Virus genome (UHGV): UHGV-0018629
DNA length: 64,000 nucleotides
Source: a virus
Reading direction: 5' to 3' (one strand)
Below the pieces are notes generated by a model. It saw only the letters and a program-made list of their open reading frames with translations. It was not told where the DNA came from and made no database searches. A program made the position numbers and the translations under genes. This document shows positions 7,108-17,017 of the stretch, piece by piece; positions within the stretch are counted from its first letter, which is position 1; every line of letters starts with the position of its first letter.

Positions 7108-7157
7108 AACTGTGAATATACTATCACAGTTTTAGGAGAAAGTAAACAACTTTATAG
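7108..7157 (-). promoter_or_regulatory. Early-promoter-like cassette: GTTGTTTAC box plus 7-bp-stem hairpin, upstream of ipIII
   Basis: Minus strand reads aaagTTGTTTAC...tgtgATAGTAT; hairpin actgtga/tcacagt; related to elements at 16628..16687 and 16954..17017. Confidence 0.45.
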
Positions 7158-7646
7158 ATTTTTGTACGCGTCCCAAGTTCCAGTTCTAAACGTTGCAATG
7201 ACCCGTTTTGCGCGATTAGGGGTTTGATTATACCATCTACTTTTAGCTAAGTTAACTGCTGCTTCATCCCAGCGTTTTTGCTGAAGCATACGCAAAGAGT
7301 TAGTGAATCCAGCTACACCAGTTTCGCCCATTTGGAAGACCATATTAATCAATGCACAACGACGAACCGCATCAAGAGAATCATAAACCGGTTTTAATTT
7401 AGCATTTCTCAAAATTCCGCGAACAGCCGCATCAACATCTTGATTAAAGAGCTTTTCAGCCTCATCTTTTGTAATTACACCATTGCAATTACGCCCAATA
7501 GCTTTATCTAATTCAGATTTAGCAACACTTAGTGATGGACTTTTAGTAAGCAAATGACCAATGCCAATAGTGTAATAGCCTTCTGTATCTTTATAGATTT
7601 TAAGTCTAAGACCTTCATCTATACGTAACATTTCAAATATATTCAT
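7152..7646 (-). CDS. e: Endolysin (T4 lysozyme)
   Basis: 164 aa; [33 protein letters not shown] nearly identical to T4 lysozyme as recalled, with a few substitutions. Confidence 0.97.
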
Positions 7647-7659
7647 AATACCTCCTAAG

Positions 7660-7681
7660 TATTTATAGAAGGTATTTATAA
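7660..7681 (-). promoter_or_regulatory. Two tandem late-promoter motifs (TATAAATA) upstream of e
   Basis: Minus strand tttataaataccttctataaatacttaggaggtattATG. Confidence 0.6.
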
Positions 7682-7682
7682 A

Positions 7683-8138
7683 TTAAAAGAGGCTGTTCAT
7701 TATTCGGTAAAGTGAAGGGCCCATCACATATTGCCACTGAGTACGAGGAATAAGAGCAAAAGCGTCCATCTCTGGAATCATAACGCCATCTTTATTTTCA
7801 AAATAAGACTCGCAATGGCAATTTCTGAACATCTCATGCTCTACTGGAATCGTATAATAAAATAACTGTAAGTCTTTATTACTAGAATATTTAAATACAC
7901 CTAAGTCTTCTAGAAGGTCTGGATTATAATTGCTAAAACCAGTCTCTTCTAAGCATTCTCTTCGTGCTGCATCTAATGCGCTTAAATCGGAATTTTCTAC
8001 ACGGCCTTTTGGAATATCCCAGCGATGTGCCATCATTCCAGGCTTACGAGAACCAGTAACTCGTCCCATAAATAAATCTTTATCTTCCGTCATAAAGATA
8101 ATACCAGCTGATAATGTTTTCATTTTAATTTCCTGCAT
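7683..8138 (-). CDS. nudE: Nudix hydrolase
   Basis: 151 aa; Nudix box GRVENSDLSALDAARRECLEETGF; position after e. Confidence 0.85.
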   Translation of the reverse strand: MQEIKMKTLSAGIIFMTEDKDLFMGRVTGSRKPGMMAHRWDIPKGRVENSDLSALDAARRECLEETGFSNYNPDLLEDLGVFKYSSNKDLQLFYYTIPVEHEMFRNCHCESYFENKDGVMIPEMDAFALIPRTQWQYVMGPSLYRIMNSLF

Positions 8139-8623
8139 TCTGTGATAAAGTTATTTAAATTTTGAGTATATTTCTTTTCATCAAAAATCTTTTGCTGCCT
8201 GCGTAACCGCCATGGCATTTCGATGAACACGCACCATATTCCTGATAGTATTGCTGCTGTAAAAATATTAACAAGTATGATTAAAAGAATCCAATCTCCC
8301 GTTCTGCCTACTGGACTTTCTCCAAAGAAGCAAAATACAAATGATGTCACAGGAAGACTAATAATATACCACAGAATCATAATCTTATCTGTGAACCAAT
8401 CAGCGTTCGTTAACTTAGCGCGACCATTATGAATACACACGAATTTATCATCTGTTATAATAGATGGCTTAACTGCTTGATATCCCATTCTAAACTCCCT
8501 AATTAATCGTTTCTTTGTATCTTCGGAACAGCCACTCCAATCAACTCTATCAACTGAAATGCCATCGTCCCCATCATCTAAATCATACCAGCGAGTTTTT
8601 AAAATCATTTGATTTTCCTGCAA
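8120..8623 (-). CDS. Small membrane protein, paralog 1 (2 predicted TM helices; C-terminal ITECRKLK)
   Basis: Hydrophobic segments ILWYIISLPVTSFVFCFF and ILLIILVNIFTAAILSGIWCVF; start may be the MILKT Met at 8608. Confidence 0.5.
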   Translation of the reverse strand: MQENQMILKTRWYDLDDGDDGISVDRVDWSGCSEDTKKRLIREFRMGYQAVKPSIITDDKFVCIHNGRAKLTNADWFTDKIMILWYIISLPVTSFVFCFFGESPVGRTGDWILLIILVNIFTAAILSGIWCVFIEMPWRLRRQQKIFDEKKYTQNLNNFITECRKLK

Positions 8624-8967
8624 TCACTCACGAATTCTTTCATTGATTCATTTTCAATATAAGACATGTAGCTATTGTATTCTTTTAATTGTATTTTGTA
8701 ATCCTTTTTTCTTTGCCAATTTATTTTAAAATTATCATAATGAAAAAATAGCATGGTACCAAAGAATGAAAATAATGAAATCGCTATAGTAAAACGAAGT
8801 TCACTCCAAACATCTGTTATAATTGCTGAACTATCGATGTTTAAAATAATACAGTCAATCATTAATCCAATAAGACTACCAGCAAGAGCTGCAGCCAACG
8901 CCACAGCAAGAATTAATAGCGCCTCGGGAAACGAATATTTGGCTTTATTTAGTTTTGGCTTTTGCAT
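8605..8967 (-). CDS. Small membrane protein, paralog 2 (C-terminal EFVSDCRKIK)
   Basis: 120 aa; TM segments ALLILAVALAAALAGSLIGLMI and FTIAISLFSFFGTMLFF. Confidence 0.5.
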   Translation of the reverse strand: MQKPKLNKAKYSFPEALLILAVALAAALAGSLIGLMIDCIILNIDSSAIITDVWSELRFTIAISLFSFFGTMLFFHYDNFKINWQRKKDYKIQLKEYNSYMSYIENESMKEFVSDCRKIK

Positions 8968-15381: not shown

Positions 15382-15750
15382 TCACAAAAATAAATCAAAT
15401 ACACGTTCTTCGTCTTCTTCGGATTTATTACCAAGGTCAACTTCTATGTCAAAGACCTTTTTAATGAATTCTGGATAAAGTTGTTCTGAGAACAGTCCTT
15501 CAACCAAGTATTCATAAATAAAAAGCGATTGCTCGCTGAACAAGCCATTACCACAATAACGTTCAGCTTTAGTACTAGAATGTCTGCTTTTAAACTTCTT
15601 TAAAAGATATTGGAATTGTAAGATTTCATGCTCTTCTACGCCAAACAGTGTTTTGGTTTTATAGTTGTCACCATCATTTTCCCAGGTAGTGACATCAATT
15701 ACGTAACCCTGCGGAATTGTAGTACCCAAACAAATATTCATTTTCACCAC
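15382..15750 (-). CDS. Hypothetical protein
   Basis: 122 aa ORF between tRNA cluster and ipI-position gene. Confidence 0.4.
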   Translation of the reverse strand: MVKMNICLGTTIPQGYVIDVTTWENDGDNYKTKTLFGVEEHEILQFQYLLKKFKSRHSSTKAERYCGNGLFSEQSLFIYEYLVEGLFSEQLYPEFIKKVFDIEVDLGNKSEEDEERVFDLFL

Positions 15751-16040
15751 GCTGCATTAATGTAAGTATATTTAATACATTCAAGATCCAAAGGATTCTT
15801 GAAAATATCATATTCAAGAGGACCTTTTTCTGTTTCAATAAAGAAATCAAAATTTACTGTATTAAATTTACGGTCTTCCTTTACTAATTTAACTTGAGAA
15901 GATGAACGGTCAATGTAAACCTTTTCAACTTCAAAATATGTTAAAATACCATAATCATCAATCAAGGATTTAGCTGCTTCTTGATCATATTTATATCCAT
16001 TTTCAATGGATGATACTTTCGCATAAAGAATCATTATCAA
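15744..16040 (-). CDS. Hypothetical protein
   Basis: 98 aa ORF, overlapping stop/start with neighbours. Confidence 0.4.
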   Translation of the reverse strand: MIMILYAKVSSIENGYKYDQEAAKSLIDDYGILTYFEVEKVYIDRSSSQVKLVKEDRKFNTVNFDFFIETEKGPLEYDIFKNPLDLECIKYTYINAAW

Positions 16041-16426
16041 CCTTCATCAACAATAGTGTGCGTATTGGCATTTACAATTTGCCACCAATCAAAGCGATTA
16101 GAACCATAATCTGGTTTGTTTTCATTTTCTTTGATAATGTCACGGAGTTCATCTTCGGTAGCGGCTTTCGCTATTAAATCAGCATATCCACCACGAGGAT
16201 AATAATTATCACCTGCAAAAAGTAAAAAGTTTGGTTTAATGTTATTGAACTCTTCGAGAGTAATAACTTTTCCTGACGGTTGAACAATCTCTACATATTT
16301 ATATCCCAATTTTTGAGCAGCATCTACTGCTTCAAGCAAAGTATCATGAGCCCATCCAATTTGACAACCTGGCTTTTCAGATGGATTCGCCTGATAATCC
16401 GCATACACTTTATACATTCTATTCAC
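16037..16426 (-). CDS. Hypothetical protein
   Basis: 129 aa ORF. Confidence 0.45.
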   Translation of the reverse strand: MNRMYKVYADYQANPSEKPGCQIGWAHDTLLEAVDAAQKLGYKYVEIVQPSGKVITLEEFNNIKPNFLLFAGDNYYPRGGYADLIAKAATEDELRDIIKENENKPDYGSNRFDWWQIVNANTHTIVDEG

Positions 16427-16643
16427 CTTTAGAAATTTTATCCATAACGATAGCGATTAAACCAATTAAAAATGCTACTACAAGTGAAAACACATTTTCT
16501 GCTGTAGTTAATAATCCACATATAAATCCAACAAACATTGAAAAACTAAAAGCAGAAGCAGAAATTGCAATAGCAACATTTCGAATTAATTCACAACGTT
16601 TCATTTTTATTCTCCTCAGTAGTTGATAGGGTAATAGTATCAC
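16419..16643 (-). CDS. Small membrane protein
   Basis: 74 aa; hydrophobic segments AIAISASAFSFSMFVGFICGLL and FSLVVAFLIGLIAIV. Confidence 0.45.
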   Translation of the reverse strand: MILLPYQLLRRIKMKRCELIRNVAIAISASAFSFSMFVGFICGLLTTAENVFSLVVAFLIGLIAIVMDKISKGE

Positions 16644-16687
16644 ACTATTACCCTACTGTAAACAACTTTGTGAAATTATTTTAAATC
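16628..16687 (-). promoter_or_regulatory. Early-promoter-like cassette: 11-bp-stem hairpin plus conserved 30-mer with GTTTAC box
   Basis: Perfect hairpin agggtaatagt-atcac-actattaccct; 30-mer gtaaacaactttgtgaaattattttaaatc identical to 16988..17017. Confidence 0.5.
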
Positions 16688-16933
16688 TTCTAATCGTTTC
16701 TTCATCTTAGAACCATTTTTAGCAATTTCTCCTGCATCGGAGCATAATGCTAAAAGCGCTTTAACTTTAGTTTGATCTCCTTTAAAAGACGAAGGATCGA
16801 CTGCAGCAGCAAGTTCTTTAATACGAGAGAAAAGACGCTCAGCTTCAGCTAAAGCCATTCCAAGCTTTACTTCCATACCGTGGGAAGATTCAGTGATAGT
16901 AGTTTTTGTAGCAAACTCTTTGAAAGTTTTCAT
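16676..16933 (-). CDS. Internal-protein-like small protein (ipI position)
   Basis: 85 aa; N-terminus MKTFKEFATK resembles internal-protein CTS; lies between 57B and tRNAs. Confidence 0.55.
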   Translation of the reverse strand: MKTFKEFATKTTITESSHGMEVKLGMALAEAERLFSRIKELAAAVDPSSFKGDQTKVKALLALCSDAGEIAKNGSKMKKRLEDLK

Positions 16934-16953
16934 TTTATTTTCCTAATTAATTT

Positions 16954-17017
16954 TGATGAGATAATAGTATCACTACCTCATCAGCATGTAAACAACTTTG
17001 TGAAATTATTTTAAATC
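16954..17017 (-). promoter_or_regulatory. Early-promoter-like cassette, second copy
   Basis: Hairpin tgatgag...ctcatca plus identical 30-mer; overlaps last codons (DLK stop) of 57B. Confidence 0.5.

What the first reader, a model, noticed from the sequence alone, without database searches (positions are those of the whole stretch)
7108..17017. Repeated GTTTAC-plus-hairpin cassette immediately downstream of e, the ipI-position gene and 57B
Three intergenic elements (7108..7157, 16628..16687, 16954..17017) share, on the minus strand, an A/T-rich tract, GTTGTTTAC (T4 early -35-like), about 18 nt, a TG-n-TA(C/G)TAT -10-like box and a perfect 7-11-bp hairpin. Copies two and three share an identical 30-mer that also encodes the last residues (DLK-stop) of the upstream gene. 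They sit just upstream of ipIII, the small membrane gene 16419..16643 and the ipI-position gene. This resembles the promoter-early stem-loop cassettes proposed to mediate modular shuffling in T4-type genomes.
Basis: partly seen in the sequence, partly recalled or inferred. Interest (0 to 1): 0.6.

Follow-up and report, generated by a model that had tools for sequence, protein, structure and literature searches.

The report
T4-type early promoter/stem-loop cassettes
The three repeated elements are real copies of the early-promoter-plus-hairpin cassettes that flank the swappable internal-protein genes of T4-like phages, a feature already described for T4 and its relatives, so the finding is correct but not new.

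Summary
Observation confirmed. On the minus strand at 7147..7108, 16993..16954 and 16663..16626, each element has GTTGTTTAC, an 18-nt spacer, TGA-TA(C/G)TAT and a hairpin across the -10 box. Copies two and three share an exact 31-mer. The composite promoter motif occurs 6 times in the window against 0.02 expected.

The window is a Tequatrovirus (T4-like) early region. T4 carries the same cassettes at e/ipIII, 57B/ipI and ipI/trna.4. Two more hairpin-bearing copies lie at 11007 and 3767 (the regB promoter). Two hairpin-less promoters lie at 11345 and 10616.

In 51 non-redundant cassettes from relatives, native promoter halves fold much better than re-paired halves (-11.5 vs -6.5 kcal/mol; 0 of 10,000 permutations). 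Stem sequences differ between phages, so the hairpin looks selected. None of 39 hairpins is followed by a T-run, so they are not canonical terminators.

Homology breakpoints with relatives are about 8-fold enriched at the three elements, which bracket alternative internal-protein genes.

The PeSL-like reading is supported, but it is published: Arbiol 2010 credits Repoila 1994 with these elements at the T-even IP loci, and Comeau 2014 extends PeSLs to T4/PST. Low interest. The hairpin's role remains untested.

The parts
7108..7170 (-). Element 1, cassette between e (stop 7154..7152) and ipIII (ATG 7080). A/T-rich UP-like tract overlaps the last codons of e. -35 GTTTAC 7147..7142, TGA 7126..7124, -10 TAGTAT 7123..7118. 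Hairpin 7131..7108 with the -10 in the loop. Predicted +1 about 7111.
   Evidence: T4 homologue, predicted TSS about 66462.
16954..17021 (-). Element 2, cassette between 57B (stop 17008..17006) and an 85-aa internal-protein gene (ATG 16933). 31-mer repeat 16987..17017 covering the UP-like tract and -35. -35 16993..16988, -10 TACTAT 16969..16964. Hairpin 16983..16954. Predicted +1 about 16957.
   Evidence: (D12). T4 homologue, predicted TSS about 73903.
16626..16691 (-). Element 3, cassette between the 85-aa ip gene (stop 16678..16676) and the trna.4 homologue (ATG 16604). 31-mer repeat 16657..16687. -35 16663..16658, -10 TACTAT 16639..16634. Hairpin 16656..16626 (12 bp plus 2 G-U) with the -10 in the 3' arm. 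Predicted +1 about 16627, the last paired base.
   Evidence: (D12, D5). T4 homologue, predicted TSS about 73536.
16676..16933 (-). The module bracketed by elements 2 and 3. An 85-aa internal head protein gene with the capsid-targeting leader MKTFKEF...ITE. T4 ipI and other ip genes occupy this slot in other phages.
   Evidence: PHROG 3499 'internal head protein', E 1e-49. Alignment of the slot in 7 phages. Annotations.
6499..7080 (-). ipIII homologue, the module downstream of element 1. It is absent from, or replaced in, AR1, RB18, Sfk20 and Phaginator.
   Evidence: PHROG 5341, E 4e-118..
10970..11007 (-). A further family member upstream of the e.7 homologue. GTTTAC, 18-nt spacer, TATTAT (no TG). 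13-pair hairpin 11001..10970, including ACAGGCTCAT/ATGAGCCTGT, across the -10.
   Evidence: z -6.5.
3716..3767 (-). A further family member, the regB early promoter. GTTTAC-N18-TGG-TATAAT. The hairpin 3760..3716 pairs the promoter spacer with the regB Shine-Dalgarno AAGAGGAG.
   Evidence: z -5.3; PHROG 1323 endoribonuclease. [quoted passage not shown]
11316..11345 (-). Early-promoter-like site without a spanning hairpin, upstream of the e.8 homologue. It shares 72% identity over 67 nt with element 3.
   Evidence: D5; z +1.1.
10587..10616 (-). Early-promoter-like site without a hairpin, upstream of the e.6 homologue.
   Evidence: D2; z -0.3.

Best explanation
These are T-even-type 'promoter-early stem-loop' (PeSL-like) cassettes: strong sigma-70 early promoters with a built-in hairpin, in the short gaps between early genes.

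(1) Promoter, inferred from sequence and from T4 homologues. Host RNA polymerase uses an A/T-rich UP tract (about -60 to -40, overlapping the last codons and stop of the upstream gene), -35 GTTTAC, TGn and -10 TA(C/G)TAT. It starts about 7 nt after the -10 and transcribes ipIII, the 85-aa ip gene and the trna.4 homologue. The 31-mer shared by elements 2 and 3 spans about -60 to -30, that is UP tract plus -35. This is why the ip gene ends in the same D-L-K-stop as 57B: its last codons lie in the UP tract of the next promoter.

(2) Hairpin, selection shown and role inferred. The 5' arm lies in the promoter spacer. The 3' arm covers or follows the -10 and ends at about +1 to +4. RNA started at the cassette's own promoter therefore lacks the hairpin, and only read-through RNA from upstream carries it. 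The most likely role is to mark or insulate read-through RNA. In these three elements it would act as an intercistronic structure, either a 3' barrier or a weak attenuator. In about a third of family members it masks the downstream Shine-Dalgarno. It is unlikely to be an efficient intrinsic terminator.

(3) Recombination linker, supported by comparison. The conserved cassette plus the capsid-targeting leader of ip genes gives 60-100 bp of homology on each side of otherwise unrelated ip genes. Homologous recombination can then swap, add or delete ip modules, each arriving with its own promoter.
For: Promoter:
- The composite motif occurs 6 times vs 0.02 expected, all on the early-gene strand and intergenic.
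- It matches published T4 early promoter features.
- The 3767 copy has the same 49-nt sequence as T4's regB promoter region, which is described as a typical early promoter.
- My '+7 after -10' rule reproduces the annotated T4 name Pe133295.

Hairpin:
- z-scores are -2.9 to -6.5 in five window cassettes.
- In 51 non-redundant cassettes, native mean MFE is -11.5 kcal/mol vs -6.5 for chimeras that re-pair 5' and 3' halves. 0 of 10,000 permutations reach the native mean, and 65% vs 17% fold at -10 or better.
- Genome-wide in T4, 54% of 35 sites fold at -10 or better vs 18% of chimeras.
- Stems at the same junction differ completely between phages. After 57B: TGATGAGGTA/TACCTCATCA, AGGTCTATAG/CTATAGACCT, GTAGGACTA/TAGTCCTAC, GTGTAGG/CCTACAC.
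- The 5' arm that pairs with TACCCTAT sits at three different spacer positions.
- The first cassette of L026 is a chimera of the two T4 types whose arms still pair. Its 5' arm carries an A-to-G change that fits the new 3' arm, leaving one G-U pair.
- The 3' arms end at +1 to +4.

Linker:
- 37 of 150 internal homology breakpoints lie in 353 nt, 3% of the span, around the three elements, across 23 loci.
- The slot after 57B holds ipI (T4), the 85-aa gene (window, AR1, Sfk20), Ip6 (RB18) or two genes (ECML-134, L003).
- The slot after e holds ipIII, Ip4, denV or other genes.

Literature: Arbiol 2010 and Comeau 2014.
Against: - No transcript data for this phage. The T4 TSS table of the dRNA-seq preprint was not available to me.
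- The hairpin's function is untested for T-even cassettes. Only one G/C-rich RB49 stem-loop has been assayed.
- Evidence that selection acts on sense RNA rather than DNA is weak. The sense strand is more stable only in the well-folded subset (n=33, p=0.009). Over all 51 cassettes the difference is not significant.
- Breakpoints are not enriched at the other four promoter cassettes: 3 ends, 2% of ends in 2.9% of the span. The cassette alone does not make a hot spot. Diversifying selection on ip genes and the shared leader may matter more.
- Breakpoint counts come from related genomes and are not independent events.
- In many more distant relatives, 57B overlaps the next gene (ATGA) with no cassette at all.
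Confidence: 0.8

Rival explanations
1. The hairpins are efficient transcription terminators for the upstream gene, as originally proposed for PeSLs. Each module would then be a closed transcription unit.
For: The stem-loop of RB49 PeSL211/210 reduced lacZ expression about as much as rrnB T1 in a reporter (Arbiol 2010). The hairpins sit just after stop codons.
Against: - None of 39 hairpin-bearing cassettes has 5 or more T in the 8 nt after the stem. Mean T is 1.7 and mean A is 4.5. Stems are only 36% G-C.
- The terminator scan flags none of them. It does flag G/C-rich stem plus T-run terminators elsewhere in the same region, at 12748, 12193 and 11503.
- From my own knowledge: ip proteins are head components needed late, and no late-promoter consensus is visible in these gaps. 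Read-through is probably required.
Confidence: 0.12
2. The inverted repeats act on DNA. Hairpin or cruciform extrusion would create a target for structure-specific nucleases or template switching and so start recombination at module boundaries.
For: Seven loci share a homology breakpoint at 16643, the junction between the variable 5' arm and the conserved TGATACTAT. Arbiol 2010 mapped one mini-circle crossover to the loop of a PeSL stem-loop. The DNA folds of elements 1 and 3 are significant, z -3.3 and -3.9.
Against: - The hairpin-bearing cassettes at 3767 and 11007 show 0 and 1 breakpoints.
- Element 2 keeps pairing only as G-U. Its DNA z-score is -1.9 against -3.75 for RNA.
- There is a weak bias toward sense-strand stability.
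- The 16643 breakpoint is also what fast evolution of the spacer would produce with no crossover there.
Confidence: 0.12
3. The hairpins have no function. They are by-products of promoter consensus self-complementarity, or of quasi-palindrome templated mutation and recombination scars.
For: The consensus AGTGATACT has a small built-in palindrome, AGT/ACT. Chimeras still average -6.5 kcal/mol against -4.3 for shuffles. 10 of 51 cassettes lack the hairpin, and two window promoters have none. From my own knowledge, T4 is the classic system for quasi-palindrome mutagenesis.
Against: Native halves fold far better than re-paired halves, with 0 of 10,000 permutations reaching the native mean. Unrelated stem sequences occur at the same junction, and 5' arms have been re-invented at different registers. 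About 80% of cassettes carry the hairpin.
Confidence: 0.08
4. The inverted repeats are operators for a dimeric DNA-binding regulator that shuts off early promoters.
For: They are inverted repeats centred on the -10 of promoters that are known to be shut off abruptly by an incompletely understood mechanism.
Against: Arm sequences, arm lengths and registers differ from cassette to cassette, with no shared half-site.
Confidence: 0.03

Closest known systems
Conserved intercistronic elements of the two T-even internal-protein loci (Repoila et al. 1994, as described in Arbiol 2010, PMC2839356, and Comeau 2014, PMC4122927)
   Same: Same loci (ipI locus after 57B, ipII/ipIII locus after e). Same T4 early-promoter core and the same A/T-rich stem-loops of variable size. 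They flank interchangeable ip genes. T4's own copies align with the window's elements.
   Different: Nothing essential. The window carries a different ip gene in the ipI slot and its own spacer and 5'-arm variant in element 3. I could not read the 1994 paper itself, only later descriptions of it.
PeSLs of RB49/phi1 (Arbiol et al. 2010) and of PST/T4 and nt-1/KVP40 (Comeau et al. 2014)
   Same: Composite layout: stop codon in an A/T-rich tract, -35/-10 promoter, stem-loop between or over the boxes, SD and ATG. Located in hyperplastic regions next to indels and replacements. The PST/T4 consensus TTTACW-N17-TAYWAT fits elements 2 and 3. Element 1 has TAGTAT, a G at the third -10 position.
   Different: RB49 stems are G/C-rich (polyG/polyC), and one acted as a strong terminator. 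The stems here are A/T-rich with A-rich tails. Arbiol et al. call the T-even elements analogues, not homologues. Mini-circles were not examined here.
T4 early promoters (Pe; reviewed by Hinton 2010, PMC2988021)
   Same: UP / -35 / TGn / -10 architecture, orientation and intergenic position. The regB promoter copy has the same sequence as in T4.
   Different: The review text does not discuss the hairpin that spans the spacer and -10. In my scan it is present at about half to two thirds of T4 sites.
RBS-sequestering hairpins with an internal promoter in T4 genes e, soc, 49 and I-TevI (Uzan and Miller 2010, PMC3014915)
   Same: Long read-through RNA folds, while RNA started inside the structure does not. 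This is the same logic as the SD-masking subclass: 18 of 51 cassettes, including the window's regB cassette.
   Different: In those genes the internal promoter is a late one, and the effect on translation was measured. In the three elements of this finding the hairpin stops 12-25 nt short of the SD.

Membership tests
T4 early promoter (Pe) | -35 GTTTAC-type hexamer, and a -10 TAnnnT 17 nt after TTTAC(A/T) | tested here: met
   All three elements have GTTTAC, an 18-nt spacer and TA(C/G)TAT.
T4 early promoter (Pe) | Extended -10 (TGn); published early motif TGTG(A/G)TA(C/T)(A/T)AT | tested here: met
   TGTGATAGTAT, AGTGATACTAT and TGTGATACTAT. Motif quoted.
T4 early promoter (Pe) | A/T-rich UP element at about -40 to -60 | tested here: met
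   CAAAAATCTATAAA, and GATTTAAAATAATTTCACAAA (twice), lie upstream of the -35. Definition.
T4 early promoter (Pe) | Transcription starts immediately after infection, without phage protein synthesis | not testable with these tools
   No transcript data for this phage. The T4 dRNA-seq TSS table is not held. Only the regB homologue has literature support.
PeSL / PeSL-like cassette | Upstream stop codon in an A/T-rich tract, then promoter, then SD and ATG of the next gene, all within one short intergenic gap | tested here: met
   Gaps of 71, 72 and 71 nt contain exactly these parts. Layout defined.
PeSL / PeSL-like cassette | Stable stem-loop between the -35 and -10 or overlapping the -10 | tested here: met
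   Hairpins at 7131..7108, 16983..16954 and 16656..16626 with z -2.9 to -3.8. Co-adaptation of halves across 51 cassettes.
PeSL / PeSL-like cassette | Located in hyperplastic regions, flanking ORFs that are inserted, deleted or replaced between close relatives | tested here: met
   About 8-fold enrichment of homology breakpoints. Alternative ip genes in the bracketed slots. Not met for the 3767, 10616, 11007 and 11345 cassettes.
PeSL / PeSL-like cassette | Stem-loop acts as a transcription terminator or attenuator | not testable with these tools
   Indirect evidence is negative: no T-run after any of 39 hairpins and A/T-rich stems.
PeSL / PeSL-like cassette | Recombination between neighbouring cassettes yields mini-circles | not testable with these tools
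   Needs inverse PCR on phage DNA (Arbiol 2010). The 31-mer direct repeat flanking the 85-aa gene would permit it.
Intrinsic (Rho-independent) terminator | G/C-rich stem followed directly by a run of T | tested here: not met
   Not flagged by the scan. Tails are TACTAATT, AAATTAAT and TCAACTAC. 0 of 39 family members have 5 or more T in the 8 nt after the stem.
T4 middle promoter | MotA box (TGCTT-type) centred near -30 in place of a -35 | tested here: not met
   GTTTAC occupies the -35 position, and no TGCTT is present in the three elements. Definition.

The most novel reading that the evidence does not exclude
The hairpin built into T-even early promoters may be a general 'transcript-origin discriminator' rather than a terminator.

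Its 5' arm lies in the promoter spacer, so only read-through RNA can fold. In about a third of cassettes that fold hides the downstream Shine-Dalgarno. It would also hide the RegB GGAG site. In the rest it ends exactly at +1 as an intercistronic structure.

Each accessory gene would then be expressed essentially from its own promoter whatever lies upstream. That would make such modules safe to shuffle.

The co-adaptation statistics do not exclude this reading. The PeSL papers interpret the stems as terminators. I did not find this generalisation to early promoters in the papers I could read.
Probability: 0.3. Interest if true: 0.45.

Novelty: already known. Interest (0 to 1): 0.2.

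Why it matters
Internal proteins are injected anti-defence factors. T4 Ip1, Ip2 and Ip3 each block a different GmrSD-type restriction enzyme (PMC12373910). The cassettes that let ip genes be swapped are therefore part of how T4-like phages change host range, which matters for choosing and engineering therapeutic phages.

This window adds only another instance of a described element.

What my analysis adds is modest:
- A quantitative test that the promoter-embedded hairpin is co-adapted across T-even phages and across the T4 genome.
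- Sequence evidence that it is not a canonical terminator.
- The observation that the repeated 31-mer is the UP element plus -35, which explains the shared D-L-K-stop.
- The finding that breakpoints cluster only at cassettes flanking ip genes.

Tried and rejected
- Rfam scan of 3000..19000 found only the nine tRNAs and no family for the hairpins.
- Terminator reading: rejected as canonical termination because no T-runs follow the stems.
- Operator reading: rejected because the stems share no half-site.
- Sense versus antisense folding, to decide between RNA- and DNA-level selection, was only suggestive.
- Direct TSS evidence. The T4 dRNA-seq preprint has 150 T4 TSSs, but its table is not in the held supplement and ip genes are not mentioned. 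Miller 2003, Repoila 1994 and a 2026 preprint on promoter-terminator coupling are not held.
- Srikant et al. 2022 report recurrent ipIII deletions through microhomology in T4. The text retrieved does not tie the end points to the cassettes, so I use it only as context.
- Column-wise covariation counting was not attempted. The stems sit at different registers between cassettes, so I used the half-swap permutation test instead.
- I did not use the large protein searches, structure prediction or metagenome scans, because the question concerns non-coding DNA.

Full report
**What the window is**

The region matches more than 1,100 phage records, nearly all T4-like myoviruses. The best matches are Tequatrovirus genomes at about 95% identity over 80-90% of the query. 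Gene order on the minus strand is that of the T4 early region:
- gene 3, gene 1, 57A, 57B;
- an internal-protein (ip) gene, then trna.4 / trna.3 / trna.2 homologues;
- tRNAs with a GIY-YIG endonuclease gene among them;
- two ip-like genes, e.8 to e.2, nudE, e;
- ipIII, an Ip4-like gene, the vs genes and regB.

**The observation**

All three elements are present as described on the minus strand. Each has GTTGTTTAC, an 18-nt spacer, TGA, TA(C/G)TAT and a hairpin.

| Element | Junction | -10 box | Hairpin | Where the -10 lies |
|---|---|---|---|---|
| 1 | e to ipIII | TAGTAT 7123..7118 | 7131..7108, 8 bp | in the loop |
| 2 | 57B to ip gene | TACTAT 16969..16964 | 16983..16954, 7 perfect pairs, 13 as RNA | loop and 3' arm |
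| 3 | ip gene to trna.4 | TACTAT 16639..16634 | 16656..16626, 12 bp plus 2 G-U | in the 3' arm |

- As RNA the hairpins fold at -10.2, -14.8 and -17.9 kcal/mol, with z-scores of -2.9, -3.75 and -3.8.
- As DNA the z-scores are -3.3, -1.9 and -3.9.
- The repeat shared by elements 2 and 3 is an exact 31-mer, 16657..16687 and 16987..17017 (D12). It encodes D-L-K-stop of both upstream ORFs.
- GTTGTTTAC alone is only mildly over-represented: 3 hits vs 0.67 expected.
- The composite GTTTAC-N15-TGN-TANNNT occurs 6 times vs 0.02 expected. All 6 are on the minus strand between 3.7 and 17 kb.
- One correction: the small membrane gene probably starts at ATG 16604, not GTG 16643.

**More copies in the window**

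The motif search and the repeat finder add four sites.
- 11007..10978, upstream of e.7. It has a 13-pair hairpin across the -10 (z -6.5).
- 3767..3738, upstream of regB. An 18-pair hairpin joins the promoter spacer to the regB Shine-Dalgarno (z -5.3).
- 11345..11316 and 10616..10587. These are promoter-like but have no spanning hairpin.

None of the cassette hairpins is terminator-like in the consensus scan. The same scan does find G/C-rich stem plus T-run terminators after the two ip-like genes, at 12748, 12193 and 11503.

**T4 has the same elements**

T4 carries homologous cassettes at e/ipIII, 57B/ipI and ipI/trna.4.
- After 57B the T4 stem is TGATGAGGTA/TACCTCATCA. The window has a C-to-T change in the 3' arm that turns a G-C pair into G-U.
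- After ipI the T4 stem is ATAGGGT/ACCCTAT. The window instead pairs TAGGGTAATAGT with ACTATTACCCTA.

Placing +1 seven nt after the -10, my T4 scan gives 133295 for the promoter between cd.2 and cd.3. The T4 record names exactly that promoter Pe133295. By the same rule, the T4 homologues of the three elements start near 66462, 73903 and 73536. The window's elements start near 7111, 16957 and 16627.

**Is the hairpin selected?**

I collected cassettes from the window, T4, Phaginator and IMG/VR loci anchored on 57B, e and trna.4. A cassette was defined as GTTTAC, a 17-18 nt spacer, TAnnnT, and then SD plus ATG.

There were 91 distinct cassettes, reduced to 51 representatives at under 80% identity.
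- Native sequences fold at a mean of -11.5 kcal/mol.
- Chimeras that join the spacer of one cassette to the -10 and downstream part of another average -6.5.
- None of 10,000 random re-pairings reaches the native mean.
- 65% of natives fold at -10 kcal/mol or better, against 17% of chimeras and 2% of shuffles.

Across the T4 early regions, 35 sites behave the same way: 54% vs 18%.

Stems at one junction are unrelated in sequence between phages. After 57B they include TGATGAGGTA, AGGTCTATAG, GTAGGACTA and GTGTAGG with their complements. The 5' arm pairing with the conserved TACCCTAT sits at three different places in the spacer in T4, L033/L034 and the window.

The first cassette of L026 combines the 5' half of the T4 ipI/trna.4 type with the 3' half of the 57B/ipI type. 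Its 5' arm reads ATGGGGT instead of ATAGGGT, which restores pairing with ACCTCAT, leaving one G-U pair.

Together these results argue that pairing itself is maintained.

**Where the hairpin sits, and what that implies**

In 41 of 51 representatives, at least five pairs link the spacer to the -10 or to downstream sequence.
- In 13, the 3' arm ends by about +1.
- In 10, it runs a little into the 5' UTR.
- In 18, it covers the Shine-Dalgarno.

In the three elements of the finding the arm ends at +1 to +4. Because the 5' arm is upstream of +1, RNA started at the cassette's own promoter cannot form the hairpin. Only read-through RNA can.

For the SD-masking subclass this is the logic already shown for T4 genes e, soc, 49 and I-TevI, where long transcripts hide the ribosome-binding site (PMC3014915). 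RNA structure is also known to protect GGAG sites from RegB.

For the three elements the likeliest roles are an intercistronic 3' barrier or a weak attenuator. This step is inferred.

Canonical termination is unlikely.
- 0 of 39 hairpins are followed by 5 or more T in 8 nt.
- Tails are A-rich (mean A 4.5, mean T 1.7).
- Only 36% of stem pairs are G-C.

Evidence for selection on the sense RNA rather than on DNA is only suggestive.

**Module boundaries**

BLAST of window 1..20000 against the related loci gave 150 internal HSP ends at 85% identity or better. Of these, 37 lie in 353 nt (3% of the span) around the three elements, in 23 different loci.
- 17 lie at 7041..7165, element 1.
- 12 lie at 16615..16681, element 3.
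- 8 lie at 16899..16913, just after the leader codons that follow element 2.

The other four cassettes hold 3 ends, which is the chance level. These counts come from related genomes and are not independent events.

Gene content agrees with this picture.

| Phage | After 57B | After e |
|---|---|---|
| T4 | ipI | ipIII, ipII, denV |
| Window | 85-aa ip gene | ipIII plus an Ip4-like gene |
| AR1 | 85-aa ip gene | Ip4 only |
| Sfk20 | 85-aa ip gene | denV first |
| RB18 | Ip6 | Ip4-like gene only (annotated RB32ORF122c) |
| ECML-134 | two genes | ipIII plus an Ip4-like gene |
| L003 | two genes | not examined |
| Phaginator | ipI | two other small genes |

Homology between alternative modules is limited to the cassette, the SD and the leader MKT(F/Y)(K/Q)EF on one side, and the next cassette on the other.

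The 31-mer spans about -60 to -30 of the promoter, that is the UP tract plus -35. The ip gene therefore ends in the same D-L-K-stop as 57B because its last codons lie in the UP tract of the next promoter.

The cassette alone is not a hot spot. Clustering is seen only where ip genes are flanked.

**Comparison with what is known**

- Arbiol et al. 2010 defined PeSLs in RB49/phi1. The layout is a stop codon in an A/T-rich tract, a sigma-70-like promoter, a stem-loop most often between the boxes or over the -10, then SD and ATG. PeSLs sit in hyperplastic regions and mediate modular shuffling.
- The same paper says Repoila et al. [quoted passage not shown] These are based on T4 early promoters, with weaker A/T-rich stem-loops.
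- Comeau et al. 2014 list PeSLs for the PST/T4 pair with the consensus TTTACW-N17-TAYWAT, and again cite the IP loci.

The finding is therefore a correct re-discovery of a published element, in a new T4-like genome.

**Verdict**

Novelty is 'already known' and interest is low.

The open point is what the promoter-embedded hairpin does. The most novel reading not excluded is that it generally distinguishes read-through RNA from self-initiated RNA rather than terminating transcription.

Noticed in passing
window 11300..11345 (-); T4 predicted TSS about 27044, 55348, 70660, 146839, 163637, 167050: A sub-family of early promoters lacks the spanning hairpin. Its members share a nearly identical -10 and 5' UTR, TGGTACTATACAACTATC followed in most copies by AACTACTGATAC(A/G)GA, with a small TATCA/TGATA hairpin inside the transcript. 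There are six copies in T4 and one in the window.
   Followed up: partly
window 11470..11509, 12157..12196, 12712..12751 (-); genes 11512..12075 and 12201..12674: Three copies of a G/C-rich stem plus T-run terminator (repeat family D4) lie around two tandem paralogous genes. Both genes carry ip-like leaders (MKTYAEFLTEA, MKSYTQFLNEA) and match PHROG 2280. The genes lie between the e.8 homologue and the tRNA cluster, where T4 has rnaC and rnaD.
   Followed up: partly
window 5798..5853 and 6446..6501: A 56-nt direct repeat (80% identity) contains the start of the vs.8-like ORF (ATG 5811). A second copy lies right after the ipIII stop, next to a 9-bp hairpin GGACAATTC/GAATTGTCC. It looks like a duplicated junction left by insertion of an ip module that has no GTTTAC promoter of its own.
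   Followed up: partly
window 3716..3767 (-): The regB early promoter spacer (TTTTCCTCTTGACTG) is complementary to the regB Shine-Dalgarno (CAGTTAAGAGGAG). Read-through RNA would hide the GGAG that RegB itself cleaves. The same 49-nt sequence occurs in T4.
   Followed up: partly
L004, L009, L012, L013, L016, L019-L025, L027-L030, L035, L036, L038 (57B-anchored loci, about position 3453): In many more distant T4-like phages the 57B stop overlaps the start of the next gene (ATGA), with no promoter cassette at all. In most of these loci that gene begins with an ip-type leader such as MKTY...EF. The cassette at this junction is therefore lineage-specific.
   Followed up: no
window 14246..14896 (-) and 13036..13590 (-): A GIY-YIG (segB/segD-like) endonuclease gene sits inside the tRNA cluster, with sharp homology breakpoints at both ends (14240, 14896). 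A 184-aa ORF has a breakpoint cluster at 13058..13072. These are non-cassette module boundaries in the same region.
   Followed up: no
window 52515..53090 (+): Two tandem copies of a 288-nt unit at 78% identity (repeat family D1), in the part of the window downstream of the early region. Not examined.
   Followed up: no
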